This document shows positions 30 through 17,527 of a stretch of 64,000 nucleotides of DNA, in pieces. The position numbers were made by a program, and so were the translations under genes. Position 1 is the stretch's first letter; each line of letters starts with the position of its first letter. This DNA is from Candidatus Stercoripulliclostridium sp. (lineage in GTDB: Bacteria; Bacillota; Clostridia; Christensenellales; DTU072), in contig JAZSLG010000071.1 in the NCBI GenBank assembly GCA_045535235.1, positions 3,445 through 67,444 on the forward strand. The letters are read 5' to 3'. The notes beneath the pieces were generated by a model. It saw only the letters and a list, made by a program, of their open reading frames with translations, ran no database searches and was not told the origin of the DNA.

Positions 30-449
30 ATGATAAGATTCGAAAAAGGATTACAGTCAACACATGAATTAAAAAAAATTACTTATAGGATGCTTCGAAA
101 ACTGCATACTCTTGAATATAAGAGTTCATTAAAGGATTGTCAAAAAATAGGAAGTAAGTACGCAGTAATACTATATTTAGAACATATGTTAACGGTGATG
201 AAGCGTTCTTATGAGGGTTTAGAAATAATTAATCCGCTAATTGCAAAAATAGATAATCTTATCAGATCTATTCAAAATCAAAAACATGTGAATCGGGTGT
301 TACTGGTTTCATGCTTGAAAAAACATACATATGTATTTAATATGTTGGAGAGTAATCATGTCTATAATATTAAAAATGCTGAATTATCGGAACTATGGTC
401 AATGAAATGTCTGTCGACCTATGTGTTTCAATTCGGAAACAATTTGTAA
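30..449 (+). CDS. hypothetical protein (139 aa, looks all-helical), immediately upstream of SIR2 gene
   Basis: ORF track. It stops 28 nt before the SIR2 start. I recognise no motif, and only a weak RBS precedes the ATG. Confidence 0.45.
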   Translation: MIRFEKGLQSTHELKKITYRMLRKLHTLEYKSSLKDCQKIGSKYAVILYLEHMLTVMKRSYEGLEIINPLIAKIDNLIRSIQNQKHVNRVLLVSCLKKHTYVFNMLESNHVYNIKNAELSELWSMKCLSTYVFQFGNNL

Positions 450-476
450 TGGTCAAATTGTAAAGGAGGATTGTGA

Positions 477-1394
477 ATGGCGATTTCTATAGAGGAAGCA
501 AAAAAGGAATTGGGCGCACTGCTTAAAAAAAACAAATTGTGTATTTTTGCGGGGTCAGGTATTTCAGTACCAGCTCCATCTAATCTACCAACTTGGGATG
601 AATTTGTTGATAAATATATAGATATTTGCAAAGAAATCAATGAAATGGTTGATTCGACACTGAAATTTAAAGAGTTATTGGACGATGCGCAAAGCTACAA
701 AACAAAAAGTGCCATCAACACATTAACTGTTTTAAAAGATAAAATACGATTCTGCAAAAAACATGGGATGAGTACGACCATATACGATGAAATGTTAAAT
801 GAATTATTTGCAGCAAAAGATTTTAATGATTATCATAGCACAATCGTAGATACCAACTATAAATATATATTAACCACTAATTATGATACGTTGTTGGATA
901 AGGCAGCAAAAATGCATAAGCACTATGACTTAGTACAAAGAATATATTCTTACAAAAACCTGCAAGGAATTTCTGAAGCCATATATACTGAAGAACCTGC
1001 AATTATTCACATTCATGGTATTGCAACGGAGGTAGTTTTAGAAGACTTTATTCTAACGGCAGATGACTATAAGCGAATTCGTGATAAAAATAAGGGAATA
1101 AGGACTTTATTAAATATTCTTTTTATGAACTACTCTATGCTTATGGTGGGTTATGGCGCAAGTGATCCACATTTAGAAGATGTTATAGAAGACATAAATT
1201 TGAGTTTTGGATGGATGGATTCGGACAATATTCTTGATTTACCAACATATTATTTGATTATAAAAAAAGACAAAGTCAGTCCAATTTTTGATCAGTTAAA
1301 AAATAGGAATAGAACAAAAGTTATTGCGGTAGAAACACACGATGAGGCACTAGAGTTGTTAAAATACCTACAAACTATTTCCCCTAAAACATAA
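477..1394 (+). CDS. SIR2-family (SIR2_2/ThsA-DSR-like) NAD+-utilising protein, stand-alone 305 aa
   Basis: Motifs: N-terminal CIFAGSGIS..P..LPTW (Rossmann NAD-binding loop), TTNYD (aa 133-137), IHIHG (His180) and VGYGASDPH (aa 224-232), the pattern of defence-type SIR2_2 domains. Strong RBS aaaggagg upstream. Confidence 0.8.
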   Translation: MAISIEEAKKELGALLKKNKLCIFAGSGISVPAPSNLPTWDEFVDKYIDICKEINEMVDSTLKFKELLDDAQSYKTKSAINTLTVLKDKIRFCKKHGMSTTIYDEMLNELFAAKDFNDYHSTIVDTNYKYILTTNYDTLLDKAAKMHKHYDLVQRIYSYKNLQGISEAIYTEEPAIIHIHGIATEVVLEDFILTADDYKRIRDKNKGIRTLLNILFMNYSMLMVGYGASDPHLEDVIEDINLSFGWMDSDNILDLPTYYLIIKKDKVSPIFDQLKNRNRTKVIAVETHDEALELLKYLQTISPKT

Positions 1395-1540
1395 ATTTTA
1401 CATGACCATTGACAATAGAGAAATGTGTTCTTGCACCAAAATGCATTCTGGATCATATTGCAATATTTAGGTGCTCGTGATTTTGTAAAATGTGGTGAAA
1501 TCAAAGTGTAGCCTTTTCGTACTACTTAGACACAAAAGGG

Positions 1541-1566
1541 AAGCAAGTCTTATGACTTGCTTTTTC
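1541..1566 (+). terminator. rho-independent terminator downstream of SIR2 gene
   Basis: 9-bp stem aagcaagtc / gacttgctt, loop ttat, then a T-run. Confidence 0.55.
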
Positions 1567-1716
1567 TTCTGTCCCTCCTCCCTGTTGTCCTGCGAGCTTG
1601 TTTTCTTTAGAAAAATTGGTGCGCTAATTTGTGTTACGTGTGTAACAAAAATCTGGTGGATGTGCAAACAATGTTTGCAAGCATTCAATGTTTAAATGGT
1701 TTGGGAGAGAAAATAT

Positions 1717-1923
1717 TTATAACAATATTCCCAAAATATAATTTGCATCTAAATCCAATTCAATGCAAAGTTTAGCAAATGTGTCTAGTTTAGGTAGTTT
1801 TTTTGTTGTTTTATATTGCGTTATCATTTCTGGAGAAACCCCAACGCGCTTTGCTATTTCTATGGTTGTTAAACCACAATTTTTTATTTCATCACTTAAC
1901 CTTGCTTTAATTGTATTTTCCAT
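1717..1923 (-). CDS. XRE-family helix-turn-helix transcriptional regulator (68 aa)
   Basis: GLTTIEIAKRVGVSPEMITQYKTTKKLPKLDTFAKLC is a classic HTH_3 pattern. RBS gagg upstream on the minus strand. Confidence 0.8.
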   Translation of the reverse strand: MENTIKARLSDEIKNCGLTTIEIAKRVGVSPEMITQYKTTKKLPKLDTFAKLCIELDLDANYILGILL

Positions 1924-2028: not shown

Positions 2029-2238
2029 ATGGCATACGCACCTAATAAATGCCCAATGTGTGGAGAAAGCGATAAATGGATAAAAGTTGATACGGATAAG
2101 AAAGGTTTTTCAGTAGGCAAGGCAGTCGTTGGAGGAGTTATTTTTGGTCCAATTGGATTGCTTGGTGGTGGATTAGGGAAAAAAACCGTAACATATGCTT
2201 GTGGTAAGTGCGGTTTTCAACACGAGTACAAAGGTTGA
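2029..2238 (+). CDS. small Zn-ribbon protein with a central glycine-zipper segment (69 aa)
   Basis: CPMCG ... CGKCG cysteine pairs flank AVVGGVIFGPIGLLGGGLG. RBS aaaaggag precedes the ATG at 2029. The 1969 start in the ORF track overlaps the promoter and is unlikely. Confidence 0.6.
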   Translation: MAYAPNKCPMCGESDKWIKVDTDKKGFSVGKAVVGGVIFGPIGLLGGGLGKKTVTYACGKCGFQHEYKG

Positions 2239-2391
2239 TAAACGAAATGAAGTTAGTTTTTTAAAAAATCGACTAAAATATAATATTATCGAATTTTACA
2301 AAAGGGTGAGTTTTTTCATCCTTTTTTATACACCTTAAAACTTTTAAAAATCCATATTGAAGTAATGGCATTTTTGTGTTAGAATGGTTTT

Positions 2392-3546
2392 ATGAATATA
2401 CTAAAGACAAAAGTATTTAGAATTATAGCTATTGTCGTTGCTTGCGTACTGGTCGTTGCAGGCTCGGTTTCTATTGGACTTTGGGAGTATGCCAAGGACG
2501 TTTATTACATAAATAAAGATGGTAACGTAGCATATCAACAAGAACATATGCGGTATCTTAGAGAGGATTTTTACTCCAATTATACGCCAAAAGGGGAGCA
2601 AATTTTTTGTGATTTCGATTTAGAGGAAGCTCTGAATAATGGCGTTAAGTATAACGAAATGGCCTTTTTAGCCACGCATAATAGTTATCAACGTCTTTCT
2701 ACGGAAACAACTAGAAAATTCCAAATACCTTTTAAGGTGATGGCATTGGGACTCAAAGAGTTTAACAAAGTGGATTTTGATTCCGATACTTTGACAAACC
2801 AATTTGAGCAAGGTATTCGTAGTATAGAGTTAGATATAGAGGCAATGGAAAAAGAAAGTGGCATTTCCTTTACCGTTATGCACAAGCCGGTTTTTGATAG
2901 TGCAACCACTTGCTTCGATTTTGGTATGGCGTTAGAAGAAATAGTTATGTGGTCAAATCACAACCCCAACCATTTACCCATATCCATTATTATAGAGGCT
3001 AAACAAGACGTTGGACCGGTTGACGGGCTAAAGATATTCTCCATTAAACACGCAGAGCAGTTTGACAACCTTCTTAGAGAAAAGTTGGGTAACAAGTTAC
3101 TAACTCCTGCAGATTTTTTAGGTGAACACGCTACCTTTGAAGATATGAGAAATGCCGATGATTGGATGAAAGTTAAGGATATGCTTGGAAAGGTCGTAGT
3201 TATTTTACACGAAAACAAAATGACCAAAGATTACGTTAAAAGGGATGAAACCTTGCGTACCCAAGCAATGATACCATCTGTTTTATACAAGCAAAGGAAC
3301 AGACATTATGCCGGAATTATCATAGAAAACAACCCCAAAAAGGCACTTGAAAGGCAGGACGTATTTGAAAGTGGTAACTTTATGGTAAGAACGAGGGCCG
3401 ATAGTTATCCCAAGTTTAGCGATACCAGATACGAGCGCACTGAGAGGTGTACTTCGCAAATAATCACGAGCGATTACGTACCTCGTTCCGTTAGATTAAA
3501 TCAACACGTTTACTCATTCAACGGATATACCGTAAAGCTATTGTAA
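2392..3546 (+). CDS. membrane-anchored PLC-like phosphodiesterase (PI-PLC X-domain-like)
   Basis: N-terminal TM segment (IIAIVVACVLVVAGSVSIGLW). FLATHNSYQ and IRSIELDIE motifs are typical of bacterial Ca-dependent PI-PLC-like domains. Confidence 0.7.
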   Translation: MNILKTKVFRIIAIVVACVLVVAGSVSIGLWEYAKDVYYINKDGNVAYQQEHMRYLREDFYSNYTPKGEQIFCDFDLEEALNNGVKYNEMAFLATHNSYQRLSTETTRKFQIPFKVMALGLKEFNKVDFDSDTLTNQFEQGIRSIELDIEAMEKESGISFTVMHKPVFDSATTCFDFGMALEEIVMWSNHNPNHLPISIIIEAKQDVGPVDGLKIFSIKHAEQFDNLLREKLGNKLLTPADFLGEHATFEDMRNADDWMKVKDMLGKVVVILHENKMTKDYVKRDETLRTQAMIPSVLYKQRNRHYAGIIIENNPKKALERQDVFESGNFMVRTRADSYPKFSDTRYERTERCTSQIITSDYVPRSVRLNQHVYSFNGYTVKLL

Positions 3547-4033: not shown

Positions 4034-4140
4034 GGTTTTATTGGAATCATATTATTAAAGGGGATAATCCAAAGTGTAAAAAGGGCATTGGTCTTTTGAT
4101 ATATTGTAGGTATTACGGGTTTTACAAAGGAGAAGGCGGG

Positions 4141-5058
4141 ATGAGGTTAGTAGATATAGGAAGTACTTTCGTTTTAGAAAAAGTTGGTACCCAAGAAAGA
4201 GAATATTACGTTTTAATTGAGCCTATCGTAGAGTATAAGCCCATTTTTTCAGGCGGAAGTTTTAGGGATAGGATTGCTCATAGGCGTGTCGTTCATATAA
4301 ACGTGGTAGACGTTGATAGCAAATTTGAAAGGGTCTCCAAGGATTCTGATTTTGGCAAGCACGTTTATGGAGCAAGCCTTGGGTCTTTGATTTATTGGAA
4401 AGATGAAACGGGCAAAAACGTGCCTTATCGTATTGTTGAAATAGATAATGAAAAAATAGTTTCTAGCGTAAAGCCTATTAAAAAGGTTGAATCTAAAAAA
4501 GAAATACAGACGCCAGAACCTAAAAAAGTAATTAATAAATCAAGCGAAGAGAAAAGAATTAAGGTTTCGGAAAAAGAAAAACGAGAGTATGCAACTGCTT
4601 TAGAAATAGTTAGAGAACAAGTTAAAAACAATCAAGGATTAATCGTTTTGTGGAGACCACAGTGGACGCATGATTTTTGTTTTGTCGTGGAATCTTTCGA
4701 ATGGGATAAAAATGAACTCTTTTTTGTTGGGACCTGTTTCGTTGAAGGAAAGGTTCATCAAAGGAATAGGCGATTTCTGGCAAGGCATGAATTCAAACTA
4801 TACGACGGTGTATATCTATCAAAAATACAATTCACTTATAAATATTTGCCTATAACGATAGAAAGAAAAGATTTTATCGAGTTGGATGAAAAATATATAA
4901 AAATAAAGGATGAACTCAATAACCTCATCATAGAGGAGATTGGAGAGGATACTTTTGAGGGGTATAAATATTTGTATTGGGGGATGAAAAAGAAAATATT
5001 AAAGGAAAAGTACGGTATTGATTGGAAAACCCCGAAAGAATTAAACCCTAATTTATAA
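4141..5058 (+). CDS. hypothetical protein; N-terminus resembles a GreA/B C-terminal (FKBP-like) fold, then a Lys/Glu linker and an unknown C-terminal domain
   Basis: RBS aaaggagaagg precedes the ATG at 4141. VGSTFVLE...YYVLIEP...FGKHVYGASLGSLIYW...YRIVEI follows the Gre C-terminal pattern by eye only. Confidence 0.55.
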   Translation: MRLVDIGSTFVLEKVGTQEREYYVLIEPIVEYKPIFSGGSFRDRIAHRRVVHINVVDVDSKFERVSKDSDFGKHVYGASLGSLIYWKDETGKNVPYRIVEIDNEKIVSSVKPIKKVESKKEIQTPEPKKVINKSSEEKRIKVSEKEKREYATALEIVREQVKNNQGLIVLWRPQWTHDFCFVVESFEWDKNELFFVGTCFVEGKVHQRNRRFLARHEFKLYDGVYLSKIQFTYKYLPITIERKDFIELDEKYIKIKDELNNLIIEEIGEDTFEGYKYLYWGMKKKILKEKYGIDWKTPKELNPNL

Positions 5059-5076
5059 ATAAAGGAAAGGAATAAC

Positions 5077-5496
5077 GTGAAAGAAAACAAAATTTTGGAA
5101 AACGGAAAGGGCAAATATTTGGATATCGTTGAGTACGATAAGGATATGGGCGAGTATAACATATCTGAAGAGGGATTAGCAAAACTCCGTGGCAAGTCCC
5201 TCATGGAACAAGTAGATTGCTACAAGGCGATTGCGACCACCAGTTTGTGTAGCTATTCCTATGGAAGAGAGGACGGCAGTAGTTACCGAGGCATAGAGAA
5301 TTCTTTTTGGACTGATAGCGATATTGAAGGAATTATTGTTGATAACGGCATAATTGTTGGCGTAAAAGCAAAAAAATTCTTGTACGGCTTATGCAATCTA
5401 TTCCCCGGTGAAACAATAAATACCTATTCCGCTTGTGACGAGGACGGCACCGGTGGAAGGGATAGGGATGATTATCTAAGAATAGAAATAAAATAA
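5077..5496 (+). CDS. hypothetical protein (139 aa)
   Basis: ORF with a GTG start 18 nt after the previous stop and RBS aaaggaaagg. No recognised motif. Confidence 0.5.
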   Translation: MKENKILENGKGKYLDIVEYDKDMGEYNISEEGLAKLRGKSLMEQVDCYKAIATTSLCSYSYGREDGSSYRGIENSFWTDSDIEGIIVDNGIIVGVKAKKFLYGLCNLFPGETINTYSACDEDGTGGRDRDDYLRIEIK

Positions 5497-5500
5497 AAAA

Positions 5501-5523
5501 AGGAGGCAAAACCTCCTTTTTTA
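5501..5523. terminator. bidirectional rho-independent terminator between convergent genes
   Basis: aggagg-caaaa-cctcct hairpin flanked by an A-run (5495-5500) and a T-run (5518-5523). Confidence 0.7.
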
Positions 5524-5530
5524 TTTAACT

Positions 5531-6325
5531 TTAGTCGATGGGGTAATGATGTAAAATATGATTTATAAGTTTTAACGAGGAACGCTCAATTTCACTTGCA
5601 TCAAAGGTGAAAATATCAAGTCCAGCAAGGAAAGGAAAATGATTAAGTATATTATCATAATCTTGACTTTCCATAATACCATTGTTTTTTATATATACAG
5701 GCACAATTATTTTATTCTGTGAAAAAGCTGTTTCGTATTCTGCGCGAATAAACTTACTGTTAATTGAATTTTCGGATATTAGTAGGAGGAAAAATGGATG
5801 ATTATCAATAGCATTTATTAGAGAAGAAACCCAATCAACGCCTACCAACAAATTGTCGAAAGACCAAAATTTTATGCCGTATTTTGAGAGATAGTCCATT
5901 ATTGATGAAGCTACTTGAGCGTCACGCCGTGAGTAACTAATAAAGAAGCCTTGCGCTAACAGTATCTTGCGAAAAACTTTATCTATTTGGCGTTTGGTAT
6001 CAAAAGATAGTTCATTATTGCTATCAAGACAGTTTTCCAAATCGATTTCCAATACGTTGTCTTTTCCCGTTTTTGCCACGTAATCAAGTTCGCTTTTTAC
6101 CCATTTTGATGCCTCGGCATTTTTAGATCTACAATAAATAAACCATATCCTTGCATCAATTTCGTCTTGTATGAGCTTAATTATGGTGTTTTCATCATCC
6201 AAAGATTTCAAAAAGAAAAGTATAGGCTCGCAACCAATCGATTCGAGATAATTTCGTATAAGTCTTACTTCATATAAGTCTTTATGTGAGTGTGAAACGA
6301 ATATATAAATTTGATTATCCAACAT
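5531..6325 (-). CDS. tandem TIR-TIR domain protein (264 aa)
   Basis: Domain 1: IYIFVSHSHKD ... SKWVKSELDY. Domain 2: FFISYSRRD ... ISENSINSKFIRAEYETA. Both show the TIR beta-A motif and a conserved Glu region. RBS ggagga precedes the ATG at 6325; the 6403 start has no RBS. Confidence 0.8.
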   Translation of the reverse strand: MLDNQIYIFVSHSHKDLYEVRLIRNYLESIGCEPILFFLKSLDDENTIIKLIQDEIDARIWFIYCRSKNAEASKWVKSELDYVAKTGKDNVLEIDLENCLDSNNELSFDTKRQIDKVFRKILLAQGFFISYSRRDAQVASSIMDYLSKYGIKFWSFDNLLVGVDWVSSLINAIDNHPFFLLLISENSINSKFIRAEYETAFSQNKIIVPVYIKNNGIMESQDYDNILNHFPFLAGLDIFTFDASEIERSSLKLINHILHHYPID

Positions 6326-6474
6326 GCTTCCTCCGTTGTGTACATTAATTATATACTTTTTCTCCCGCTTTTGTAAAGATGAAACGTATTTTACACCAGC
6401 CATAACCTAGAAAATTGCTCATTGATTTGTCTTATAGTATATGTTATAATAAATTTATACGAAGGAGAGAATAT

Positions 6475-6792
6475 ATGGAAAGAAAATACATTATTGATTG
6501 GAAAAAGACCAGTAGAAATTTATATCTTTTGAGAAAAGACAATATTGAATTACGCAAAAAAGTTTGTAAAGAATTGGATTTGCACAGGGAAGAATGTAGT
6601 GAAAACTGCAAAGAATGCAAATATGAAATGGATAGTAGCATTAGTAGATACGAGTTATCGCAAGTTTTTAACGTTTCGGAAAGCGTAATTTTTAATTGGG
6701 AAAACAATAAAACCACGGTTCCTTATGAAGATTTGTTGTTCTATTGCCAATTGGCAGAGGTAAGTGTGGAGGACATCGTAGTTTTTGAGTGA
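6475..6792 (+). CDS. XRE-like HTH protein with a Cys-containing insert (105 aa)
   Basis: ELSQVFNVSESVIFNWENNKTTVPYEDLLFYCQLAEVSVEDIV is an HTH_3-like C-terminus. RBS gaaggaga precedes the ATG at 6475. Divergent from the TIR gene. Confidence 0.6.
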   Translation: MERKYIIDWKKTSRNLYLLRKDNIELRKKVCKELDLHREECSENCKECKYEMDSSISRYELSQVFNVSESVIFNWENNKTTVPYEDLLFYCQLAEVSVEDIVVFE

Positions 6793-6865: not shown

Positions 6866-6890
6866 AAGCCACGCTTGTCGTGGCTTTTTT
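6866..6890 (+). terminator. rho-independent terminator
   Basis: Stem aagccacg / cgtggctt, loop cttgt, then a T-run. Confidence 0.75.
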
Positions 6891-7045: not shown

Positions 7046-7074
7046 TTGACGGTCTTTTATTATAATGTTATAAT
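7046..7074 (+). promoter_or_regulatory. sigma70-like promoter of the vWA-kinase-phosphatase operon
   Basis: TTGACG (7046-7051), 17-nt spacer, TATAAT (7069-7074), about 65 nt upstream of the first vWA start. Confidence 0.5.
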
Positions 7075-7139: not shown

Positions 7140-7859
7140 ATGGGATTAAATAGTGTAGGCGTATCAAGAAATATCGACATAGTATTTTGTATTGATGGAA
7201 CTGGTAGCATGTCTCCTTGCCTTGATAAGGTAAAAGCTAATGCAAGAAAGTTCTACATGGATTTCGTTGATGAAATGGTAAAAGACGGTACCAACGTTGA
7301 TTGCTTAAACATGAAAGTTATTACTTTCCGTGATTACAAGGACGATGGCCCCAATGCAATGATAGAAAGTGAATGGTATGATATGACCGCAGGCGATGAA
7401 GACAAATATGAAAAGCACCTTAGCGGTATTATTGCAGACGGTGGCGGTGACGAACCCGAAAACGGATTGGAAGCTTTGTTCCAAGCAATGTGTACAAAAT
7501 GGAATGCAAAGGGCGATAAGGATAGACAAATAATCGTATTGTTTACCGATGCGGATGCTCTTCCCTTAAAGGACCGTGAAGGCGTTTCCGGATATCCTGC
7601 AAATATGGTTGACCAAGATGGCTTGATTAAAGCTTGGTTCTGTACTCGCCCCGATTTTCTTTCACAAGGAGAATTTTCTCTAAGAGAAAGATGCAAGAGA
7701 TTGGTTATGTTTGCTCCCGCAGGTAGCGCTTATGAAAATCTTTCCACTCTTTTGAATCGTAGCATTTTCAAACCTGTTGAGATGAATTCCGGTCTAGGTG
7801 AAATAGATTTTAGTGACGTAATTAAAATCGTTAAAGCATCTGCTAGCGCTGCGTCATAA
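7140..7859 (+). CDS. vWA-domain protein, TerY-like (paralog A)
   Basis: MIDAS-type DIVFCIDGTGSM, GGGDEPENGLEA and LFTDADA motifs. Strong RBS aaaggagg. Confidence 0.85.
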   Translation: MGLNSVGVSRNIDIVFCIDGTGSMSPCLDKVKANARKFYMDFVDEMVKDGTNVDCLNMKVITFRDYKDDGPNAMIESEWYDMTAGDEDKYEKHLSGIIADGGGDEPENGLEALFQAMCTKWNAKGDKDRQIIVLFTDADALPLKDREGVSGYPANMVDQDGLIKAWFCTRPDFLSQGEFSLRERCKRLVMFAPAGSAYENLSTLLNRSIFKPVEMNSGLGEIDFSDVIKIVKASASAAS

Positions 7860-7902
7860 TTAGATTTCGGTTCAAACATTTTAATATTAATACAAAAATA
7901 AG

Positions 7903-7930
7903 TAATAAGCCGATTAATATCGGCTTATTA
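7903..7930 (+). promoter_or_regulatory. perfect 12-bp intercistronic stem-loop abutting the next RBS
   Basis: taataagccgat-taat-atcggcttatta. No T-run follows, and the RBS gaaggag begins at 7932. Confidence 0.5.
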
Positions 7931-7943
7931 CGAAGGAGAAGAT

Positions 7944-8801
7944 ATGTGTAAAAAGTACGTTAAAGTATATTGTCCTCAATCAAAATGTCATGGATTGGTT
8001 ACAATTGAAAATAATAACGGCGTAGATCAAGTCGTTAACTTTTACGAAATAGATAATGATACCGCAAACAAGATAAAAACCGATTATGAAGGCAATCTTC
8101 CTATGGTTTCTCAACATTTGAAGCCTTGTGCTGATACAGGTAGGAGGGAGCCAAAATGTTGTGATAAAAAGCGTTCTTGTAAAGTTAAGACTGGTGAATT
8201 ATGGTACCAATGCCTATATTGTTCCAATTTGGAATTGGCTAGAGAGAGCTCGGGTGGAGCAGAATTTTATTTCTTACTTGATGCTTCCGGCAGTATGAGT
8301 TATAGAGATAGGAAAGATGCTTCTAAGGCAGTAAGTAAAATGATGCAATCTTTACAGGGAAACGGCAATACGTATAGTTTCGTACCTTGGGCTTGTAGGG
8401 CAACCTATTTGTTCCATAGGGAAACCAATTTGTATAAGATGAATTCTGCATTAAGTCAATATGAAAATGATTTATGTGACGTAGGGGGAAGCACTGCTGC
8501 AGATGAAGCGTTTAAGTTTATATATTCAGACGTTATGAGTGCGAAGAAACCCGTAAGAATCATTTTGGTTACGGACGGATACTTTAACGACGATGATAGT
8601 GCTGTTAGAGCGAGAGATTTGTTGTTAAGAAAAAAAGACGTAGAAATCCTAGCTATTGGTATTACCGGGGCAAATGCTAGTACGCTAAAAAGAATAGGTA
8701 CTGTTTCCGACTTCTCAATAGTTGTAGGTGAAAGTTCTGCTTTGATTAGTACGTTTGAAGAAATAACACAAATATTAAAGAATAACGGCAACAACTTCTA
8801 A
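7944..8801 (+). CDS. vWA-domain protein with a Cys-rich (Zn-ribbon-like) N-terminal module
   Basis: N-terminal ~95 aa contain CPQSKCH, CC, C-x6-ish and CLYC cysteine clusters. The vWA part has FYFLLDASGSMS (DxSxS MIDAS), GGST and LVTDG. Confidence 0.8.
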   Translation: MCKKYVKVYCPQSKCHGLVTIENNNGVDQVVNFYEIDNDTANKIKTDYEGNLPMVSQHLKPCADTGRREPKCCDKKRSCKVKTGELWYQCLYCSNLELARESSGGAEFYFLLDASGSMSYRDRKDASKAVSKMMQSLQGNGNTYSFVPWACRATYLFHRETNLYKMNSALSQYENDLCDVGGSTAADEAFKFIYSDVMSAKKPVRIILVTDGYFNDDDSAVRARDLLLRKKDVEILAIGITGANASTLKRIGTVSDFSIVVGESSALISTFEEITQILKNNGNNF

Positions 8802-8811
8802 GGAGGGAAAT

Positions 8812-9507
8812 ATGGGATTCAATCAATTAAGCAAAGAAAGGAAAATTGATATTGTTTTTTGCATTGATGCAACCAGCAGTATGGGCCATTGCATCGATAA
8901 CGTAAAAAAGCACGCAAGAACGTTTTATCAAGAATTCGTTGATAAAATGACAAAAGAGTATAATAGTAAAGTTGACTCTCTTAGGGTACAAGTCATAGTT
9001 TTCCGTGATTTGGAATGTGACACCGAGGGGCTTGTTTGCAGTGAGTTCTTTGAATTACCTGCCGATACAAGCTATTTTGAAAACTATCTCGATAGAGTTA
9101 CTCCTAGAGGTGGCGGAGATTATAAGGAAAGCGGTTTGGAAGCAATATATACTGCAATGACGACTGATTGGATAGCTAGAGGAAGCAACGATAGACAAGT
9201 TATTCTATTCTTTTCCGATGCCGACGCTATTGATTTTGGCGAAAAGGAAAATAGAACCGGTTATCCCAAAATTTGTGACCAAGCAACATTTTTGAACATG
9301 TGGCTATGTAGAATGGGAAATGCCAACAAGCTTAGCGAAAGATGCAAGAGAATGGTAATGTTTGCTCCTGCAAAATCGGTTTATGAAAAGTTGCAAGGAA
9401 CGTTGAATAGGACTGCTTTTAAGGCAGTATTACCTCAAAAAGGAATGAAGGACGTTTCATTTGATGAAATAATGAAAATTCTTTGCGCTAGCGCATCCTC
9501 TATTTAA
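8812..9507 (+). CDS. vWA-domain protein, TerY-like (paralog C of 7140..7859)
   Basis: Motifs: DIVFCIDATSSM, GGGDYKESGLEA, FFSDADA. Collinear with paralog A along its whole length, including SERCKR.VMFAP and the C-terminal ASAS tail. Confidence 0.85.
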   Translation: MGFNQLSKERKIDIVFCIDATSSMGHCIDNVKKHARTFYQEFVDKMTKEYNSKVDSLRVQVIVFRDLECDTEGLVCSEFFELPADTSYFENYLDRVTPRGGGDYKESGLEAIYTAMTTDWIARGSNDRQVILFFSDADAIDFGEKENRTGYPKICDQATFLNMWLCRMGNANKLSERCKRMVMFAPAKSVYEKLQGTLNRTAFKAVLPQKGMKDVSFDEIMKILCASASSI

Positions 9508-9534
9508 CAAAGGTGTTTAACGAAGGAGAAAAAA

Positions 9535-11145
9535 ATGATTTATCATAGTAAATATAATGTAAACCCTGCCGACGTTGTCGATGGTGCAATCAATTGGAAG
9601 ATTACGGGCAACGGTGCATTTATCATCGCAGAATACGGTGGAACAAAGTATTTCGTTAAGAGATATACTATGGGTCCAAGAATGCCCACCTCTGAAATTC
9701 CAGAACCTGTTTATTCCGATAATAAAAAGACGGCGGACGCTTTGACACAAAAGCAGGAAGAAATCCGTCGTTTGTTTAAAAAGGCGGGACTTAACGTTGA
9801 CACTCATCACATAGTTGTAGAGGAAGAAAACTTTTGGGATGACGATAATATGTTCGTTACGGTTACTCGCGTAATACCCAACGAAAACGAAGGCTTTGAT
9901 TACAAGAGACTTAGTCAAAAGGATTTCGTAAAATTGTGTTGCGATATAACGGAACTCATAAGAAAAATTCACGATGCCGGTGTTACGCATGGTGATTTGA
10001 AAGAAAAAAATATATTAATTCAAAACAATTCCGGCGCATTTGTACCTTATCTTATTGACTTTGATTCCTCCTATCCAAGTGATTATCCTACTAGAAAAAA
10101 GAGTGATGGTACTCCCATGCTTTCTGTTCCGATAGTATATTCACCCGGTTATCAAAGTCCGGAAATCGCTATTAATAACTTTAATAATGATAATGGCGAC
10201 GAGGTTGACACAACGTTAATTAGTAATAAAACGGACATTTTCACGTTGGCTTTAATTTTCCACAAGCTTTGGACTGGTATTTTCCCTACCGTTATAGGTG
10301 ACGATTGTCCCGTTGCGGAAGCAGTATACATGAGAACGCCCATTAGATTAGACTCCAAGTTTGACGTAATCCTTGGAGCTAATAACGAGTGTAAATTCTC
10401 CGGCTTACTCGAGTGGATGCTTTCTAAAGAGGGTAAGGATAGACCTACCGCACAACAAGTATTGGACGTTTTGAACGATAGGTTGGACGTAGGCGAGCAT
10501 TTTGCTTACACGGGCGCTCCGCAAAGATTTGATTTGGATCCCCACCGCGTTCATGAAAGCGCAATAGAGATTTTGGATAGAGAAGCGCTAAGGGCACTTG
10601 GACTAAGATCTTTAGTAAAGATAACGGAAGGCGGTAATTACAAATATCTTGTTAGAAAAACAGATGGCTCTGAGTTTAGGTACACGGTAGACGAACTCAT
10701 AACTAACGGCTATGCTAAAGCAAAACCCATCAGTTTGGGTACGCTTTTCCCCGAGGATAGCGCAGTTATTGAATTTGTAAGCGCCGATGAGATAGCTAAG
10801 CTAGGTGTAATTTCGATTGAGCCTCGTGATTTGGGCTTTAGAAAATTCTACTTTGTTAAGCTAATGAATGGTGGTGGATATACAGCGAGCAAGACTGCTT
10901 TGATTGATAGAGGAATTGCAAGGCTTAAACCTGTTACTCCCGTATCGATAGCTATGGACGACGCTCCTTGGCCCGAGCATGGTTCAAGTTATCGTAAAGA
11001 AAATCTCATAGCAAGAAAAATTATTAAGATAGAAAAAGTAGTGGAAGACGGTCAACACAAATATAAGATTATTTATGATGATGGTGGTACACAAAGTGAA
11101 CGTATCGTTGCCGTAAGCTATCTTAAAATCATGAAAATATTATAA
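9535..11145 (+). CDS. Ser/Thr protein kinase (Hanks-type) with three C-terminal ~50-aa repeats
   Basis: Motifs: Gly loop ITGNGAF, beta3 Lys in YFVKRY, catalytic loop HGDLKEKN (Asp154 = nt 9994-9996), DFD (aa 175-177), YQSPE, DIFTLALIF and a DRPTA subdomain XI Arg. Confidence 0.85.
   Translation: MIYHSKYNVNPADVVDGAINWKITGNGAFIIAEYGGTKYFVKRYTMGPRMPTSEIPEPVYSDNKKTADALTQKQEEIRRLFKKAGLNVDTHHIVVEEENFWDDDNMFVTVTRVIPNENEGFDYKRLSQKDFVKLCCDITELIRKIHDAGVTHGDLKEKNILIQNNSGAFVPYLIDFDSSYPSDYPTRKKSDGTPMLSVPIVYSPGYQSPEIAINNFNNDNGDEVDTTLISNKTDIFTLALIFHKLWTGIFPTVIGDDCPVAEAVYMRTPIRLDSKFDVILGANNECKFSGLLEWMLSKEGKDRPTAQQVLDVLNDRLDVGEHFAYTGAPQRFDLDPHRVHESAIEILDREALRALGLRSLVKITEGGNYKYLVRKTDGSEFRYTVDELITNGYAKAKPISLGTLFPEDSAVIEFVSADEIAKLGVISIEPRDLGFRKFYFVKLMNGGGYTASKTALIDRGIARLKPVTPVSIAMDDAPWPEHGSSYRKENLIARKIIKIEKVVEDGQHKYKIIYDDGGTQSERIVAVSYLKIMKIL
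10579..11142 (+). repeat. three tandem protein-level repeats in the kinase C-terminus
   Basis: aa ~349-398, 417-467 and 487-536 share the core G-x(1,2)-[KR]-[YF]-x-[VIF]-x3-[DN]-G ... L-I-x2-G-x-A-[KR]-x-K-P. Aligned by eye. Confidence 0.5.
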
Positions 11146-11158
11146 TGAGGAAATTGCC

Positions 11159-13576
11159 GTGAATTATTTTAAGTTTTATAAAGTTCAAAAAAACGAAGAT
11201 TCGGACCCATATTTGTTTATTAATGAAGCAAATGGTGAAGGAATAGTTGCCGTTGCCGATGGTTTGGGTGGCTCCGGCTCTTTCGTTCACGTTATAGAAG
11301 AGAACGATAAGAAAGGAAATTTTGAAAAAACGCTAAAAGAGAGTTTTTTACCCGAGTATTATCTTAAGGAAGAAGTTCCCACCGAGGAAAAAGAAGAGAA
11401 AGTAGTAGAGCAAGCGCCAGAAAACGCAGATAATGCCTCCGAACAAGCGGAAAATGCGGAGGAGAAGGGCGAAGAACAAGCCGAAGAAATCCCCGTTGTT
11501 GAGGAAAAGGTTACCGTTGAGGAAGCACCTAAGGGCGACGAAGAGTTTGAAAAGTGGGTTGACCAAATGCTAGCTCCCATGCTTGACGACGAATCGGACA
11601 CCTCTGCTCTTTGGGGTTCACGTATTGCAATTGCGCGTACTATCTACTATTTGAAAAGCAACCCCAACAAGGCTCTTAGCGACGAAGAAACTAGGAAAGA
11701 AATGGTGGAATTCGTCTATAAAGGCTTGAATGACGTTAAAGATACTTTCCATTTGAAAACCGGTAATATCGCAGGTCAGTCAACCTTGCCTACCACTCTT
11801 GTAGTTATGAAGTACAAGGAAATGGAAGAGGGAGTAAAGGTTGAAGTTGTTTGGGCAGGCGACTCCAGAGGCTACGCGCTAATCCCCGGTAAAGGCTTAA
11901 AACAACTCACCGAGGACGACGAAGACGGCTCCGGTGCAATAAACAACCTCTTCTCTATCCATAAAGAGAAAAATGCAAACACCGTTTTGCATTATAAAGA
12001 GGTTCTTTTACCCAAGAAAAGTGCTATTTTTGCTTGCAGTGACGGTTTCTTCGACCCATTCGATCCCATCGATAACATTGGCGTAGAATGCGTATTGTTG
12101 GATGCGATAAATAAAGCAAATTCCTATGAGGAGTTTGAAGAAGAATGGCATGCTTTCTATAAGCCCACCACTCACGACGATTGCAGTATATCTTTCGTAT
12201 CCCTTGGCTATGATAGTTACGAGGCATTCAAAGATGATTTTTGTGATGCAGAAAGAATGCTAAAAGTAAGGGGCTTGTTTGACGATTATAGTAAGTATAG
12301 AAAGCTTTTCTTAATCTTTGATGGTATAGAAGATCGTCCCGAGGAATACATTGAAGAAAGAGCTATGGCAAGAAAGGATAGTATTTTGGATATTATTTCA
12401 CAAGCTATCGTAAGCGGACAAGAAGACGGTGTTATTACGGATAAAGAAATAGCCATATACGAAAAACTAAAGAAAGATAAAAAGGAAGAGGCAGAATCGA
12501 AAAAAGGTGAAGCCATATACAAAAAGAGAGCAGAAATATTAAATGATATTAATGATAATATCCAAGACTGTTCTAAAATCTTTGACGTTTTTAACCTTGA
12601 CCAAGGTGACGACGTGCTTTTAGCAATAAACGAGGCTAATGGTACGTATAAAGCGTTTGAACAAGCTAACAAAGAATTGGAGGCGGTGAATACACAACTG
12701 GCGGATTTGGAAAAGGATCAAAAGCAAGTTGAGGCTCGCGGAGATGCTATTATCAATTCAAAAAGCAAGAAAAATGCAGATGGGAAAATTATTTTCAGCT
12801 TGAACGACAGACTGCAAGAGTTGGAAAAATATATTGCCGAATACAAGCAAAGAGAGAATGAGAATAATGATATAACCCATCGCAAACCAATTAATTGTGG
12901 ACCGGACGACCATTATTTGGAAAATGCAAGAAAAACCAGCCATGAAGCAAGATCTCAATATAAAAAATGGGAAAAAGCCAAAGAAAATCTTGAAAAAGTT
13001 AAACAAGATTGGATTGACAAAAAACCAACTTGCAATAATTTCTTTGGAAAAATCTTTAAGCTGTTCTGTGGCTTGATGAATCAATTCTTTGATAGAAAAC
13101 TTTTTGAAATAGACAAAGAAATCATAGAGCCTATTAAAAAAGCACTTGAAGAATATCATCAAATAGGTGGGAAGATTGAGGCGATTAAGAAAGAGATAGA
13201 AAAGAAAGATAAAGAAAAAGAAAAGATTTGTGCCGAGTGGCAAAAGAATATGTCGTCTCTAAATAAAGATTTGCCGAAGATGATAGAGAATTGTGATCAT
13301 TACTTTACCAAAGAGGCAATTGTTAAATACGATTTACCGGTTAATTGTCCTCAACCGCAAGAGATTACGGCAGAAGATCTAAAAATTGCTCTAGATGATG
13401 AGTACGCTGGCATAATTGAAAATTATAAAAAGTGTAATCAAAGCTTAATAGATAGAGTGTTTAATCGTAGTAAGGTGGAGTTATTCAGGTCGTACAAGGA
13501 TTTGGATGAAAACGAGGCCAGAAAAGCGAAAAAAGAGATAGCCGAAATGGAAAAGAACTATTTTGTAATAGATTAA
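11159..13576 (+). CDS. PP2C-family Ser/Thr phosphatase fused to a ~450-aa coiled-coil C-terminus
   Basis: GTG start with RBS gagga. Motifs: VAVADGLGGSG (aa 31-40), VWAGDSRGY (aa 231-239), FACSDGFFD (aa 291-299). An acidic low-complexity insert spans aa ~70-135. From aa ~400 the sequence is Lys/Glu-rich and heptad-like. Confidence 0.8.
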   Translation: MNYFKFYKVQKNEDSDPYLFINEANGEGIVAVADGLGGSGSFVHVIEENDKKGNFEKTLKESFLPEYYLKEEVPTEEKEEKVVEQAPENADNASEQAENAEEKGEEQAEEIPVVEEKVTVEEAPKGDEEFEKWVDQMLAPMLDDESDTSALWGSRIAIARTIYYLKSNPNKALSDEETRKEMVEFVYKGLNDVKDTFHLKTGNIAGQSTLPTTLVVMKYKEMEEGVKVEVVWAGDSRGYALIPGKGLKQLTEDDEDGSGAINNLFSIHKEKNANTVLHYKEVLLPKKSAIFACSDGFFDPFDPIDNIGVECVLLDAINKANSYEEFEEEWHAFYKPTTHDDCSISFVSLGYDSYEAFKDDFCDAERMLKVRGLFDDYSKYRKLFLIFDGIEDRPEEYIEERAMARKDSILDIISQAIVSGQEDGVITDKEIAIYEKLKKDKKEEAESKKGEAIYKKRAEILNDINDNIQDCSKIFDVFNLDQGDDVLLAINEANGTYKAFEQANKELEAVNTQLADLEKDQKQVEARGDAIINSKSKKNADGKIIFSLNDRLQELEKYIAEYKQRENENNDITHRKPINCGPDDHYLENARKTSHEARSQYKKWEKAKENLEKVKQDWIDKKPTCNNFFGKIFKLFCGLMNQFFDRKLFEIDKEIIEPIKKALEEYHQIGGKIEAIKKEIEKKDKEKEKICAEWQKNMSSLNKDLPKMIENCDHYFTKEAIVKYDLPVNCPQPQEITAEDLKIALDDEYAGIIENYKKCNQSLIDRVFNRSKVELFRSYKDLDENEARKAKKEIAEMEKNYFVID

Positions 13577-17100: not shown

Positions 17101-17527
17101 CTACACCGAGCATAGGATGGAGCTAGGAAAAGAGGATAAAACGCGCTACGCTAAGCTTGTTTACAACGGAGTATTAGACAACGAAATGCAAATTGAGGAG
17201 CGCGTGATAGGAGTCTTCCAAGGCTTTGATATCATACTTCCCTCCCACATGCAAAATGAAAGACCTTTTATTTATCTAGCGCGCGAAAGTCGTCACCAAG
17301 TGGAAATCGGCGAATCGGAAGTAGGTGTTGTTTTCCGCATGATTAACTGCTTAGATAACCTCGGCAAGCGCCTCGATAGACTAAGATACAGAGTGTCACA
17401 GTTGGAGTTTGAACGCATCGAAATTGAGCGCGAACTTAACAAACCGGGTGGATACCTTGATGAAATTGAGGCACTAAAGAATGAAATCAAAGAAATTGAT
17501 AGAAAATTGGGGGTAAAACTTAAATGA
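14105..17527 (+). CDS. SNF2-family (SF2) helicase/translocase, 1140 aa, with a non-helicase N-terminal region and a C-terminal coiled coil
   Basis: Motifs: LYPYQKDAV, HDVGSGKTY (GSGKT = nt 15254-15268), LFVDEAHNYKN (DEAH = nt 15728-15739), ATGTPITNS, MGSTFKLGIGVNVQ, MVQREGRILRPGN (nt ~16706-16720). RBS aaggag. Confidence 0.9.
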   Translation: MLHLRRNDLEEIVKSMSSGPITAKDLDELIKGLGEVYKEVKEREDVAEQKRLQKEKEEREKVENVTCMELPLDYENYFEYDMNATSVRVESASDALITSLNNLGRVDIEYMSVISGLTHKALIVELKGAIYQNPDKWEECFYKGWETADEYLSGNLLRKRAKAVDCEKKYKGWFQDNIRAIDEVLPDAVSTLDIYVTLGSPWVPTDVIEDFIDYLYNHKKTYVKLRGSVIHDEETGTWEIIDKNRYYHDTLSTSTYGTDRMEALYILEKTLNMRSIAVTDEVPCISNKSGKKRVINQKETLLAIEKQKKMIKMFQNWVWRDDARRERLEIIYENNYSCYRTRKYNGSFLTFPKMNPDIVLYPYQKDAVSRILFSPNTLLAHDVGSGKTYIMIAAGMEMRRMGLSKKNMYVVPNNIVGQWNRMFLELYPSAHLLVVEPKHFTPAKRQDTLKKIRDNDYDAVIMAYSCFDQIPLSYDYYLAEARERKKELENRVFSRARTTHTVQKKLEKMKKEVSELSQQLYNVVMAGEIYFDQLGITRLFVDEAHNYKNVPVETKINNVLGISETGSEKCKLMMAKVHQVQKSNEGKGVVFATGTPITNSITDAFIMQLYLQSGELALLDIQNFDAWVGMFAEKEESFEIDVDTKNYRLATRFSKFHNIPELTSLLSSIADFHITKTSEDLPVFTGYTDALVGKTPDFQDYLDKISDRAEAVRKGQVGRNEDNMLLITTDGRKAALDLRLVDNTKPFVFQSKVARCAENVYNIYDKTMEGKLTQLVFCDTSVPSDRFNMYDELKRLLLALGIPEQEIAFIHDATTDKSRLAFFDKVQKGEIRVLMGSTFKLGIGVNVQNKLVAIHHLDVPWRPADMVQREGRILRPGNTNGRVFIYRYVTEGSFDAYSWQLLESKQRFISGLLAGSITERNNVDISDTILNYAEVKALAIGNPLIKKRVEKANELTKLYALQAKHVENKDKISRKQQEIPTLISQAQERVDKCKADFDYYTEHRMELGKEDKTRYAKLVYNGVLDNEMQIEERVIGVFQGFDIILPSHMQNERPFIYLARESRHQVEIGESEVGVVFRMINCLDNLGKRLDRLRYRVSQLEFERIEIERELNKPGGYLDEIEALKNEIKEIDRKLGVKLK

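What the first reader, a model, noticed from the sequence alone, without database searches (positions are those of the whole stretch)
5531..6792. Fused double-TIR protein divergently paired with an atypical HTH gene
One 264-aa polypeptide carries two TIR-like domains and no other domain: IFVSHSHKD...WVKSELDY and FISYSRRD...SKFIRAEYETA.

Established knowledge: bacterial TIR domains act as NADases or signal-nucleotide synthases in Thoeris, CBASS-associated and other defence systems, and TIR activity depends on self-association.

Inference: a covalently duplicated TIR could be a pre-assembled sensor or effector. The divergent 105-aa HTH protein (6475-6792), with its Cys-containing insert, may be its regulator or a second component. 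No SLOG/Macro-type ThsA is adjacent.
Basis: partly seen in the sequence, partly recalled or inferred. Interest (0 to 1): 0.6.

Follow-up and report, generated by a model that had tools for sequence, protein, structure and literature searches.

The report
Stand-alone two-TIR protein, unrelated HTH neighbour
One 264-residue protein really does carry two TIR (NAD-cleaving immune-type) domains and belongs to an uncharacterised family of lone genes in gut and rumen bacteria, but the neighbouring regulator gene belongs to a different gene cluster.

Summary
Window 5531-6325 (-) encodes a 264-aa protein made of two TIR domains and nothing else. Both domains keep the Glu at the catalytic position (E79, E196).

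It belongs to a sizeable, unnamed family: 638 clusters at 50% identity and 72 species genomes, almost all gut or rumen Firmicutes, with none in viral contigs.

The two halves are not equivalent:
- The N-terminal ThsB-like TIR is almost frozen. Mean identity is 62%, E79 is present in 223 of 223 members, and its BB loop is the most conserved segment.
- The C-terminal canonical TIR is fast-evolving. Mean identity is 30%, E196 is kept in 86%, and its BB loop is the most variable segment.
- In a 98%-identical sister island, a third of all differences fall in a 400-bp patch of the C-TIR.

No neighbour is conserved across 68 loci, and no SIR2, SLOG or Macro protein is adjacent.

The pairing with the HTH gene is coincidental. 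Homologues of the HTH, which share four invariant cysteines, sit at the head of vWA-kinase-PP2C clusters that have no TIR gene.

Most likely this is a self-contained, single-gene NAD+-cleaving immune protein, with a constant catalytic TIR fused to a variable specificity TIR. That function is inferred and has not been shown. I rate it a new variant of a known kind, of moderate interest.

The parts
5531..6325 (-). Two-TIR gene, 264 aa plus stop, monocistronic
   Evidence: ORF. TIR_2 at E 6.4e-28 with two stretches. 56 close homologues. AF2 pLDDT 90.3.
6026..6313 (-). N-terminal TIR, residues about 5-100. It is ThsB-like and short (four strands), with the motifs F-x-S-H-S-H-x-D, EPILFFLK and DEIDAR and a W75-x3-E79 motif. 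E79 is encoded at 6089-6091.
   Evidence: - PADLOC ThsB models reach 1e-11 on residues 5-97.
- The profile matches PDB 8btn_B, and E79 aligns with that protein's Glu.
- E79 is present in 223 of 223 members, and W or Y at position 75 in 220 of 223.
- Mean pairwise identity is 62%.
- Its BB loop has the lowest entropy of any segment, 1.05 bits.
5954..6025 (-). Loop and long helix linking the two TIR domains (residues about 101-124)
   Evidence: DSSP on the AF2 model gives a helix at 108-123. The segment is variable, at 2.6-3.2 bits.
5534..5953 (-). C-terminal TIR, residues about 125-264. It is a complete five-strand canonical TIR_2 domain. E196 is encoded at 5738-5740.
   Evidence: - The profile matches Cat1 (1e-11) and AbTir (3.5e-7), with E196 aligned to their catalytic Glu.
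- E196 is kept in 192 of 223 members, and 11 more have Asp.
- Mean pairwise identity is 30%, and 20% in the tail.
- Its BB loop has the highest entropy of any segment, 3.36 bits.
5575..5974 (-). Divergence hot-spot between this window and the sister island L001, covering C-TIR residues about 133-203 (alpha-A through BB loop to alpha-C)
   Evidence: 52 of the 165 differences in 9.95 kb fall in this patch. In the C-TIR (res 123-215) pS is 0.31 and pN 0.13, against pS 0.014 and pN 0 in the N-TIR. That pattern points to an imported allele segment.
6348..6377 (-). Promoter-like site for the TIR gene (TTTACA, 18-nt spacer, TATAAT)
   Evidence: 11 of 12 matches. An RBS, GGAGGAAGC, lies at about 6330-6338.
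5496..5522 (.). Bidirectional terminator hairpin shared by the TIR gene and the convergent ORF at 5077-5496
   Evidence: The terminator scan finds it on both strands.
6475..6792 (+). Xre-type HTH protein of 105 aa with a Cys4 insert (C31, C41, C45, C48). It has its own promoter (6422-6450) and terminator (6866-6886). It is not part of the TIR unit and travels with the downstream vWA-kinase-PP2C cluster.
   Evidence: HTH_26 match. Invariant cysteines. Promoter and terminator. Genomic contexts of its homologues. Homology boundary at 6475. Lambda-cI-like fold.
7140..13576 (+). Neighbouring module to which the HTH belongs: three vWA proteins, a Ser/Thr kinase and a PP2C-like protein, with its own promoter at 7046-7074
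   Evidence: Pfam matches. The same module follows HTH homologues in L079, L080 and L083.

Best explanation
The gene encodes a solitary, self-contained TIR enzyme of the bacterial immune type. It is a member of a widespread but uncharacterised family of two-TIR proteins of about 250-275 aa, found in gut and rumen Firmicutes.

The two domains divide the work. The nearly invariant N-terminal ThsB-like TIR (W75-x3-E79) is the constant catalytic engine that cleaves NAD+. The fast-evolving C-terminal canonical TIR sets specificity and regulation. It would do this by sensing an infection cue, by contributing the second TIR needed to complete or gate a composite active site, and by steering higher-order assembly.

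On activation the protein would deplete NAD+ or make an ADPR-derived product, and so stop growth of the infected cell.

The HTH gene is not part of this unit.

Shown: the architecture, the Glu residues, the asymmetric conservation, the absence of a conserved partner, and the independence of the HTH. Inferred: NADase chemistry, a role in defence, and which domain senses.
For: **TIR identity**
- Two TIR folds and nothing else.
- E79 aligns with the Glu of PDB 8btn_B, TLR2 and RPS4.
- E196 aligns with the catalytic Glu of AbTir and Cat1.
- E79 and E196 align with each other.

**Asymmetry between the halves**
- E79 is present in 223 of 223 members, with an aromatic residue at -4 in 220. This is the W-x3-E arrangement that is catalytic in AbTir (W204/E208; 10.1101/2022.05.07.491051).
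- E196 is kept in 86%.
- The N half averages 62% identity and the C half 30%.
- The N BB loop is the most conserved segment and the C BB loop the most variable.
- A recombinant patch confined to the C-TIR separates two otherwise 98%-identical islands.

**Single-gene unit**
- The gene is monocistronic, with its own promoter and terminator.
- No neighbour family is shared across 70 loci.
- Among 127 immediate neighbours the commonest Pfam family is TIR_2, at 6 of 127. None has SIR2, SLOG or Macro.

**Context and distribution**
- Here the gene sits in a low-GC island of about 14 kb, together with SIR2, vWA-kinase-PP2C, SNF2 and MoxR modules.
- The distribution is patchy, 72 species genomes, and no copy is found in viral contigs.

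**Modularity**
- Relatives add N-terminal modules to the same two-TIR core: a Zn-ribbon, a third TIR, DUF4062 or Macro.

**Why a pair matters**
Against: - There is no experimental data for any family member.
- Many neighbours are housekeeping genes such as SecA, PPDK and GreA. Only about 10 of 127 have strong PADLOC hits, so enrichment in defence islands is weak or unproven.
- The intramolecular N-C geometry could not be compared with known active TIR-TIR interfaces.
- The C-TIR keeps its Glu in most members, so it may also be catalytic rather than a pure sensor.
- The variable patch has high pS as well as pN (pN/pS 0.42). This indicates allele exchange, not proven positive selection.
Confidence: 0.45

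Rival explanations
1. An orphan ThsB-like signal generator. The two-TIR protein senses infection and makes a cADPR-type or ADPR-derived messenger, which is read by an effector encoded elsewhere. One candidate is the SIR2 protein at 477-1394, 4 kb away.
For: The N-TIR matches PADLOC ThsB models (1e-11) and Pfam ThsB_TIR. The SIR2 protein matches the SIR2 part of ThsA models at 2.3e-16. Thoeris loci often carry several divergent ThsB genes (10.1101/2021.01.06.425286).
Against: - The SIR2 protein is 305 aa and has no SLOG or other ligand-binding domain.
- Together with the 139-aa ORF at 30-449 it forms an independent two-gene cassette. That cassette is found, unchanged, next to recombinases and in other contexts without any two-TIR gene.
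- phmmer with the window's SIR2 finds no homologue within about 8 kb in about 70 other two-TIR loci, and no immediate neighbour carries a SIR2, SLOG or Macro domain.
- The two genes lie on opposite strands with five genes between them.
Confidence: 0.2
2. A non-immune NAD-metabolising enzyme of gut anaerobes. It would make cADPR isomers or other NAD-derived metabolites for physiology or for interaction with the host or the microbial community.
For: The family is overwhelmingly from gut and rumen Firmicutes. Many copies sit among housekeeping genes. Gut-bacterial TIR domains are known to make cADPR variants (PMC9092222).
Against: - The distribution is patchy and accessory.
- The C-TIR is hypervariable and shows allele exchange.
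- Other TIR genes are occasionally clustered nearby, and here the gene lies in a low-GC island.
- Fusions to DUF4062 and Macro domains point toward conflict systems.
Confidence: 0.12
3. One reading: a two-component unit in which the divergent Cys-rich HTH protein regulates, or works together with, the two-TIR protein.
For: The two genes have back-to-back promoters about 45 bp apart. The arrangement is kept in the sister island L001.
Against: - HTH homologues head vWA-kinase-PP2C clusters that have no TIR gene.
- Homology to L079 begins exactly at the HTH start codon.
- HTH domains are found in 2 of 127 neighbours of two-TIR genes elsewhere.
- L001 is the same island at 98% identity, so it is not independent evidence.
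Confidence: 0.04
4. A non-catalytic TIR adaptor, scaffold or decoy, for example one that titrates or nucleates other TIR proteins.
For: Other TIR-domain genes are the only recurrent neighbours, 6 of 127, and they form arrays in L075 and L039. About 9% of members have neither Glu nor Asp at the position of E196.
Against: E79, the aromatic residue at -4, and some twenty further polar residues of the N-TIR are invariant across 223 members. That is typical of an active site, not of a scaffold surface alone.
Confidence: 0.05

Closest known systems
ThsB (Thoeris TIR sensor-synthases)
   Same: It is a small TIR protein of bacterial defence type. The N-TIR matches ThsB profiles and has the catalytic-position Glu. 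Like ThsB, part of the protein is highly divergent between relatives.
   Different: There are two TIR domains in one chain. No ThsA or other effector gene is adjacent, either here or in 68 other loci. It therefore cannot be called Thoeris.
Stand-alone or effector TIR NADases that act by assembly (AbTir/BtTir, Cat1 CARF-TIR, SpbK, SARM1 TIR)
   Same: The C-TIR is closest in sequence to the Cat1 and AbTir TIRs. A W-x3-E type motif is present. [quoted passage not shown]
   Different: Those proteins have one TIR plus a coiled-coil, CARF, SAM/ARM or other sensing domain. Here the only extra domain is a second, divergent TIR.
Plant paired TIRs RPS4/RRS1 (executor and sensor TIR heterodimer)
   Same: The parallel is conceptual: one conserved, competent TIR is paired with a divergent partner TIR that regulates it.
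   Different: The plant TIRs sit on separate NLR proteins with many other domains, and they are not homologous in detail. This is an analogy only.
Eukaryotic tandem-TIR proteins (mollusc Toll-2 family; Dictyostelium TirE)
   Same: Two TIR domains lie in tandem in a single polypeptide (PMC4929906; PMC13142454).
   Different: Those are large receptor or RCC1-repeat proteins in eukaryotes. This is a minimal bacterial protein containing only TIR domains.
Swarozyc / DUF4062 TIR-like NADases
   Same: They are single-gene TIR-like NADase defence proteins. The N-TIR gives weak DUF4062 hits, and one relative (P0155) fuses DUF4062 to the two-TIR core (10.64898/2026.05.01.722283).
   Different: The DUF4062 hits fall below threshold (E 0.005). 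The architecture is different and no link to a phage portal protein is known.

Membership tests
TIR domain superfamily (Pfam TIR_2 / ThsB_TIR) | Profile match above the curated threshold, for each half | tested here: met
   The whole protein scores 98.1 bits against a cut-off of 28, with two stretches. The N half alone scores 38.1 bits, and all 16 N halves tested match. The C half matches PDB TIRs at up to 1e-11.
TIR domain superfamily (Pfam TIR_2 / ThsB_TIR) | Flavodoxin-like TIR fold | tested here: met
   AF2 gives pLDDT 90.3. The top Foldseek PDB hits are the SPARTA, RPPT and SARM1 TIR domains at probability 1.0.
Catalytic (NADase-type) TIRs | Glu at the start of alpha-C, with an aromatic residue four positions before it | tested here: met
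   N-TIR: W75 and E79, with E in 223 of 223 members. C-TIR: F192 and E196, with E in 192 of 223 and Y, W or F at -4 in 131 of 223.
Catalytic (NADase-type) TIRs | NAD+ cleavage or cyclase activity | not testable with these tools
   This needs biochemistry.
Thoeris (ThsA + ThsB) | ThsB-type TIR protein | tested here: met
   PADLOC ThsB models reach 1.1e-11 on the N-TIR.
Thoeris (ThsA + ThsB) | An adjacent effector gene with a signal-binding domain (SIR2-SLOG, Macro-TM or another ThsA type) | tested here: not met
   - No such gene flanks the TIR gene.
- The nearest SIR2 is 4 kb away, lacks SLOG and belongs to another cassette.
- None of 127 neighbours in 68 loci carries SIR2, SLOG or Macro.
Signal-activated TIR effectors (CBASS TIR-SAVED/TIR-STING, Pycsar TIR, Cat1) | A fused nucleotide-sensor domain and a linked cyclase or CRISPR locus | tested here: not met
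   The protein has no SAVED, STING, CARF or cNMP-binding domain, and no cyclase is among the neighbours.
Xre/cI-type HTH regulators (for ORF 6475-6792) | HTH profile match and five-helix cI-like fold | tested here: met
   HTH_26 scores 23.4 bits against a cut-off of 22. HipB(Lp) matches at 0.0027. Foldseek hits lambda cI and the C.BclI and C.AhdI controller proteins, with weak E-values but probability about 1.

The most novel reading that the evidence does not exclude
The family is a minimal one-protein immune receptor built from a fused executor-sensor TIR heterodimer. The hypervariable C-terminal TIR is not primarily an enzyme. It acts as the receptor, or as an integrated decoy, that recognises phage factors. 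Its central BB-loop to alpha-C cassette is exchanged between strains by recombination. The invariant N-terminal TIR is held inactive by the C-TIR until the trigger arrives. This would be a bacterial, covalent counterpart of the plant RRS1/RPS4 TIR pair.
Probability: 0.2. Interest if true: 0.7.

Novelty: new variant of a known kind. Interest (0 to 1): 0.5.

Why it matters
TIR enzymes need at least two TIR domains to form an active site. How that assembly is held in check and then triggered is a central question in bacterial, plant and animal immunity.

This is a natural protein of about 260 aa containing only two unequal TIR domains, one frozen and one hypervariable. It would be the smallest system available for dissecting division of labour between TIRs: which one is catalytic, which one regulates or senses, and which face does what.

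It would also fill a gap left by systematic surveys, which deliberately discarded stand-alone TIR genes (10.64898/2025.12.03.692087). The family is common in gut and rumen Firmicutes, whose defence repertoire is poorly charted.

Tried and rejected
- **HTH as partner: rejected**.
- **SIR2 at 477-1394 as ThsA-like partner: rejected as a linked component.** It has no SLOG domain, it forms an independent cassette with the 139-aa ORF, and it is absent from the other loci.
- **Phage origin or anti-defence protein: no support.** There were zero confirmed hits in IMG/VR. PHROGs gave only one sub-threshold hit. BFVD gave only single-domain TIR or deoxyribosyltransferase-fold matches.
- **Search for an HTH operator.** I looked for a motif shared between the TIR-HTH intergenic region and HTH or vWA upstream regions elsewhere. 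Only a weak ATTTGTCGA lead turned up, upstream of the vWA genes and of the L029 HTH, and nothing in the TIR-HTH spacer.
- **Macro-TIR-TIR fusion (P0162).** I followed it up as a clue to ADPR chemistry. It is a singleton and its genomic context is uninformative.
- **NCBIfam.** It has no model for the two-TIR protein, and public sources give it no name.
- **Literature.** Searches for bacterial tandem, double or dual TIR proteins found only eukaryotic cases and bicistronic constructs.
Full report
**1. What is there**

A longer in-frame ATG at 6403 is unlikely to be used, for three reasons:
- An 11-of-12 sigma-70-like promoter (-35 at 6377, -10 ending at 6348) lies inside that extension.
- A GGAGGAAGC ribosome-binding site precedes the ATG at 6325.
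- An NCBI copy of the protein is called at 264 aa.

A hairpin at 5496-5522 scores as a terminator on both strands. It separates the gene from the convergent ORF 5077-5496, so the gene is monocistronic.

Pfam TIR_2 matches at 6.4e-28 with two separate stretches. ThsB_TIR also matches twice, and nothing else is found. AlphaFold2 with 43 homologues gives pLDDT 90.3 and pTM 0.85. The model shows two beta-alpha units joined by a long helix at residues 108-123. Foldseek's best PDB matches are the SPARTA, RPPT and SARM1 TIR domains.

The divergent gene 6475-6792 encodes a 105-aa Xre/cI-type HTH protein.

**2. The two TIR domains are unequal**

| Feature | N-terminal TIR (res ~5-100) | C-terminal TIR (res ~125-264) |
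|---|---|---|
| Closest profiles | ThsB (PADLOC 1e-11; PDB 8btn_B 4e-5) | Cat1 (1e-11), AbTir (3.5e-7) |
| Strands | four (short) | five (complete) |
| Mean pairwise identity, 43 full-length homologues | 62% | 30% (tail 20%) |
| Catalytic-position Glu, 223 non-identical members | E79, 223/223 | E196, 192/223, plus 11 Asp |
| Aromatic residue at -4 | W or Y in 220/223 | Y, W or F in 131/223 |
| BB-loop entropy | 1.05 bits, lowest of all segments | 3.36 bits, highest of all segments |

Sources.

Profile-profile comparison of the halves gives 97.6% probability but only 22% identity. E79 aligns with E196.

E79 aligns with the Glu of 8btn_B, TLR2 and RPS4. E196 aligns with the catalytic Glu of AbTir and Cat1. 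In AbTir the W204-x3-E208 pair is catalytic (10.1101/2022.05.07.491051).

E55, R59, F62, S67 and S73 are also 100% conserved in the N-TIR.

**3. Micro-evolution**

A metagenomic contig, L001, carries the same island at 98.3% identity over 9.95 kb. Of the 165 differences, 52 fall between 5575 and 5974. That stretch is the centre of the C-TIR, residues about 133-203, running from alpha-A through the BB loop to alpha-C and flanking E196. The 122 N-terminal residues are identical between the two copies.

In the C-TIR (residues 123-215) both pS (0.31) and pN (0.13) are high, against pS 0.014 in the N-TIR. The simplest reading is import of a divergent allele segment, a cassette exchange, and not point-wise positive selection.

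**4. Family and distribution**

- The profile finds 638 clusters at 50% identity with E at or below 1e-30 among 1.84 billion representatives.
- It finds 72 loci among GTDB species genomes. Nearly all are gut or rumen Clostridia, Christensenellaceae, Oscillospiraceae, Lachnospiraceae, Bacilli or Erysipelotrichales. There are a few outliers, including a fragmented Methanobrevibacter copy.
- It finds none in IMG/VR viral contigs, and there is no full-length structural match in BFVD.
- NCBIfam has no model, and no public source names the protein.
- Some relatives extend the same core at the N terminus: with a CxxC...CxxC Zn-ribbon (P0048, P0052, L029), a third TIR (P0075, P0080, P0117, P0125), DUF4062 (P0155) or a Macro domain (P0162, a singleton).

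**5. Genomic context**

- I made my own ORF calls in 70 loci and clustered all proteins within 5 kb. No family is shared beyond near-identical islands.
- Among 127 immediate neighbours in 68 loci, the commonest Pfam family is TIR_2, at 6 of 127. Everything else occurs three times or fewer, and includes SecA, PPDK, GreA and chromate transporters. There is no SIR2, SLOG or Macro domain, and HTH_3 occurs twice.
- Strong PADLOC hits occur in about 10 of 127 neighbours.
- phmmer searches with each window neighbour recover only L001, plus one HTH homologue in L029.

The gene is therefore a solitary unit. In this window it lies in a 14-kb stretch of lower GC (0.31-0.38, except one 2-kb bin at 0.41, against about 0.42 elsewhere). 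That stretch is a mosaic of independent conflict-type modules.

**6. The HTH gene**

Its family of 18 members has four invariant cysteines, C31, C41, C45 and C48, in an insert between helix 1 and the recognition unit. So the 'atypical' feature is real.

Its partners lie elsewhere, however:
- In L079, L080, L081 and L083, homologues at 55-79% identity sit upstream of, and co-oriented with, vWA(-vWA-vWA)-kinase-PP2C clusters with no two-TIR gene nearby.
- In L082 and L084 the homologue stands alone.
- blastn homology between the window and L079 begins at base 6475, the HTH start codon, and continues through the vWA cluster. The TIR gene and the 150-bp spacer are not shared.

In the window the HTH has its own promoter (6422-6450) and terminator (6866-6886). 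The vWA operon has a separate promoter (7046-7074). The divergent arrangement with the TIR gene is an accident of island assembly.

**7. The nearby SIR2**

ORF 477-1394 matches the SIR2 portion of ThsA, LmuA and Dsr models. It is only 305 aa, however, and has no SLOG domain. The identical protein, always preceded by the 139-aa ORF (30-449 here), occurs next to serine recombinases and an IS element (L086, L087) and in a radical-SAM/NADAR neighbourhood (L088). None of those contexts has a two-TIR gene. It is an independent cassette.

**8. Mechanism**

Established knowledge:
- TIR NADases use the alpha-C Glu.
- The BB loop mediates and gates that association (10.1101/2022.05.07.491051; PMC12162218).

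Inference from the anatomy:
- The invariant N-TIR, with its invariant BB loop and W-x3-E motif, is the constant enzyme.
- The C-TIR is most variable at its BB loop, alpha-B and alpha-C, and that region is exchanged between strains. It is the specificity or regulatory partner.
- The protein is probably kept inactive as a monomer. It would become active on trigger-induced rearrangement or oligomerisation, and then deplete NAD+ or release an ADPR-derived product.

I put this at about 0.45. The rivals are:

| Rival | Confidence |
|---|---|
| Orphan ThsB-type signal maker with an unlinked effector | 0.2 |
| Non-immune NAD-metabolite enzyme of gut anaerobes | 0.12 |
| Non-catalytic adaptor or decoy | 0.05 |

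**9. Comparison with what is known, and novelty**

The protein is a TIR-superfamily member: profile, fold and Glu were all tested and met. It fails the defining Thoeris criterion, an adjacent ThsA-type effector. It also lacks the sensor domains of the CBASS, Pycsar and Cat1 TIR effectors.

I found no description of a bacterial protein with two TIR domains in tandem. Tandem TIRs are reported in mollusc Tolls and in Dictyostelium TirE (PMC4929906; PMC13142454). A recent systematic survey of bacterial TIR signalling removed stand-alone TIR genes by design (10.64898/2025.12.03.692087).

I therefore rate it a new variant of a known kind, of moderate interest (0.5). It is a clean and experimentally tractable family with a striking internal asymmetry, but no function has been demonstrated for it.

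Noticed in passing
window 6475-6792 with 7140-13576; also L079, L080, L083: A family of small Xre-type HTH proteins has four invariant cysteines (C-x9-C-x3-C-x2-C) inserted after helix 1. It recurrently heads clusters of one to three vWA proteins, a Ser/Thr kinase and a PP2C-like protein (TerY-P-triad-like). It may be a metal- or redox-sensing regulator of that conflict module.
   Followed up: partly
window 30-1394; L086, L087, L088: A two-gene cassette consists of an unknown 139-aa protein and a 305-aa SIR2-only protein that matches the ThsA, LmuA and Dsr SIR2 parts. The identical cassette occurs in other contexts, including directly after three serine recombinases and next to an IS transposase. 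It is probably a small mobile defence module.
   Followed up: partly
window 2375-3174: There is a second cluster of differences between the window and L001, 45 of the 165, in the 5' two-thirds of the PI-PLC-like gene (2392-3546). The rest of the island is almost identical.
   Followed up: no
window 1528-1591; L001 10041-10096; L079 1916-1979: A sequence of about 60 bp containing a hairpin (aagcaagtcttatgacttgctt) is conserved at 84-93%. In L079 it lies in an otherwise unrelated position, beside a 446-aa TIR_2 gene. It may be a terminator or a small repeat element at module junctions.
   Followed up: no
window 1717-1923 (-) and about 2031-2238 (+): A divergent pair of small genes: a 68-aa Xre-type HTH protein, and a protein of about 69 aa with two CxxC pairs flanking a Gly-rich hydrophobic segment (a Zn-ribbon membrane peptide).
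   Followed up: no
window 14105-19882: An SNF2/DrmD-like helicase (1140 aa) is followed by a MoxR-type AAA ATPase and a DUF2201 vWA-metallopeptidase protein. This is another conflict-type module just outside the low-GC island.
   Followed up: no
window 4096-5496: Two co-oriented ORFs of 320 aa and 139 aa have no match in Pfam, NCBIfam, PHROGs or PADLOC. They are convergent on the TIR gene and are found only in the sister island L001.
   Followed up: partly
L075 4647-14694; L039 4060-11554: Arrays of five to seven consecutive TIR-domain ORFs surround a two-TIR homologue, which in L075 is fragmented.
   Followed up: no
P0057, P0062, P0064 (representative library): Giant proteins of 1,400-2,300 aa have five to seven TIR stretches that match the C-TIR half of the profile. 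Their origin is unknown.
   Followed up: no
L067 7977-8753 (Methanobrevibacter MAG): A two-TIR homologue in an archaeal bin is split into ORFs of 155 aa and 99 aa. It could be a pseudogene, a transferred fragment or binning contamination.
   Followed up: no
window 45994-55188: A single 3,064-aa ORF. I did not examine it.
   Followed up: no
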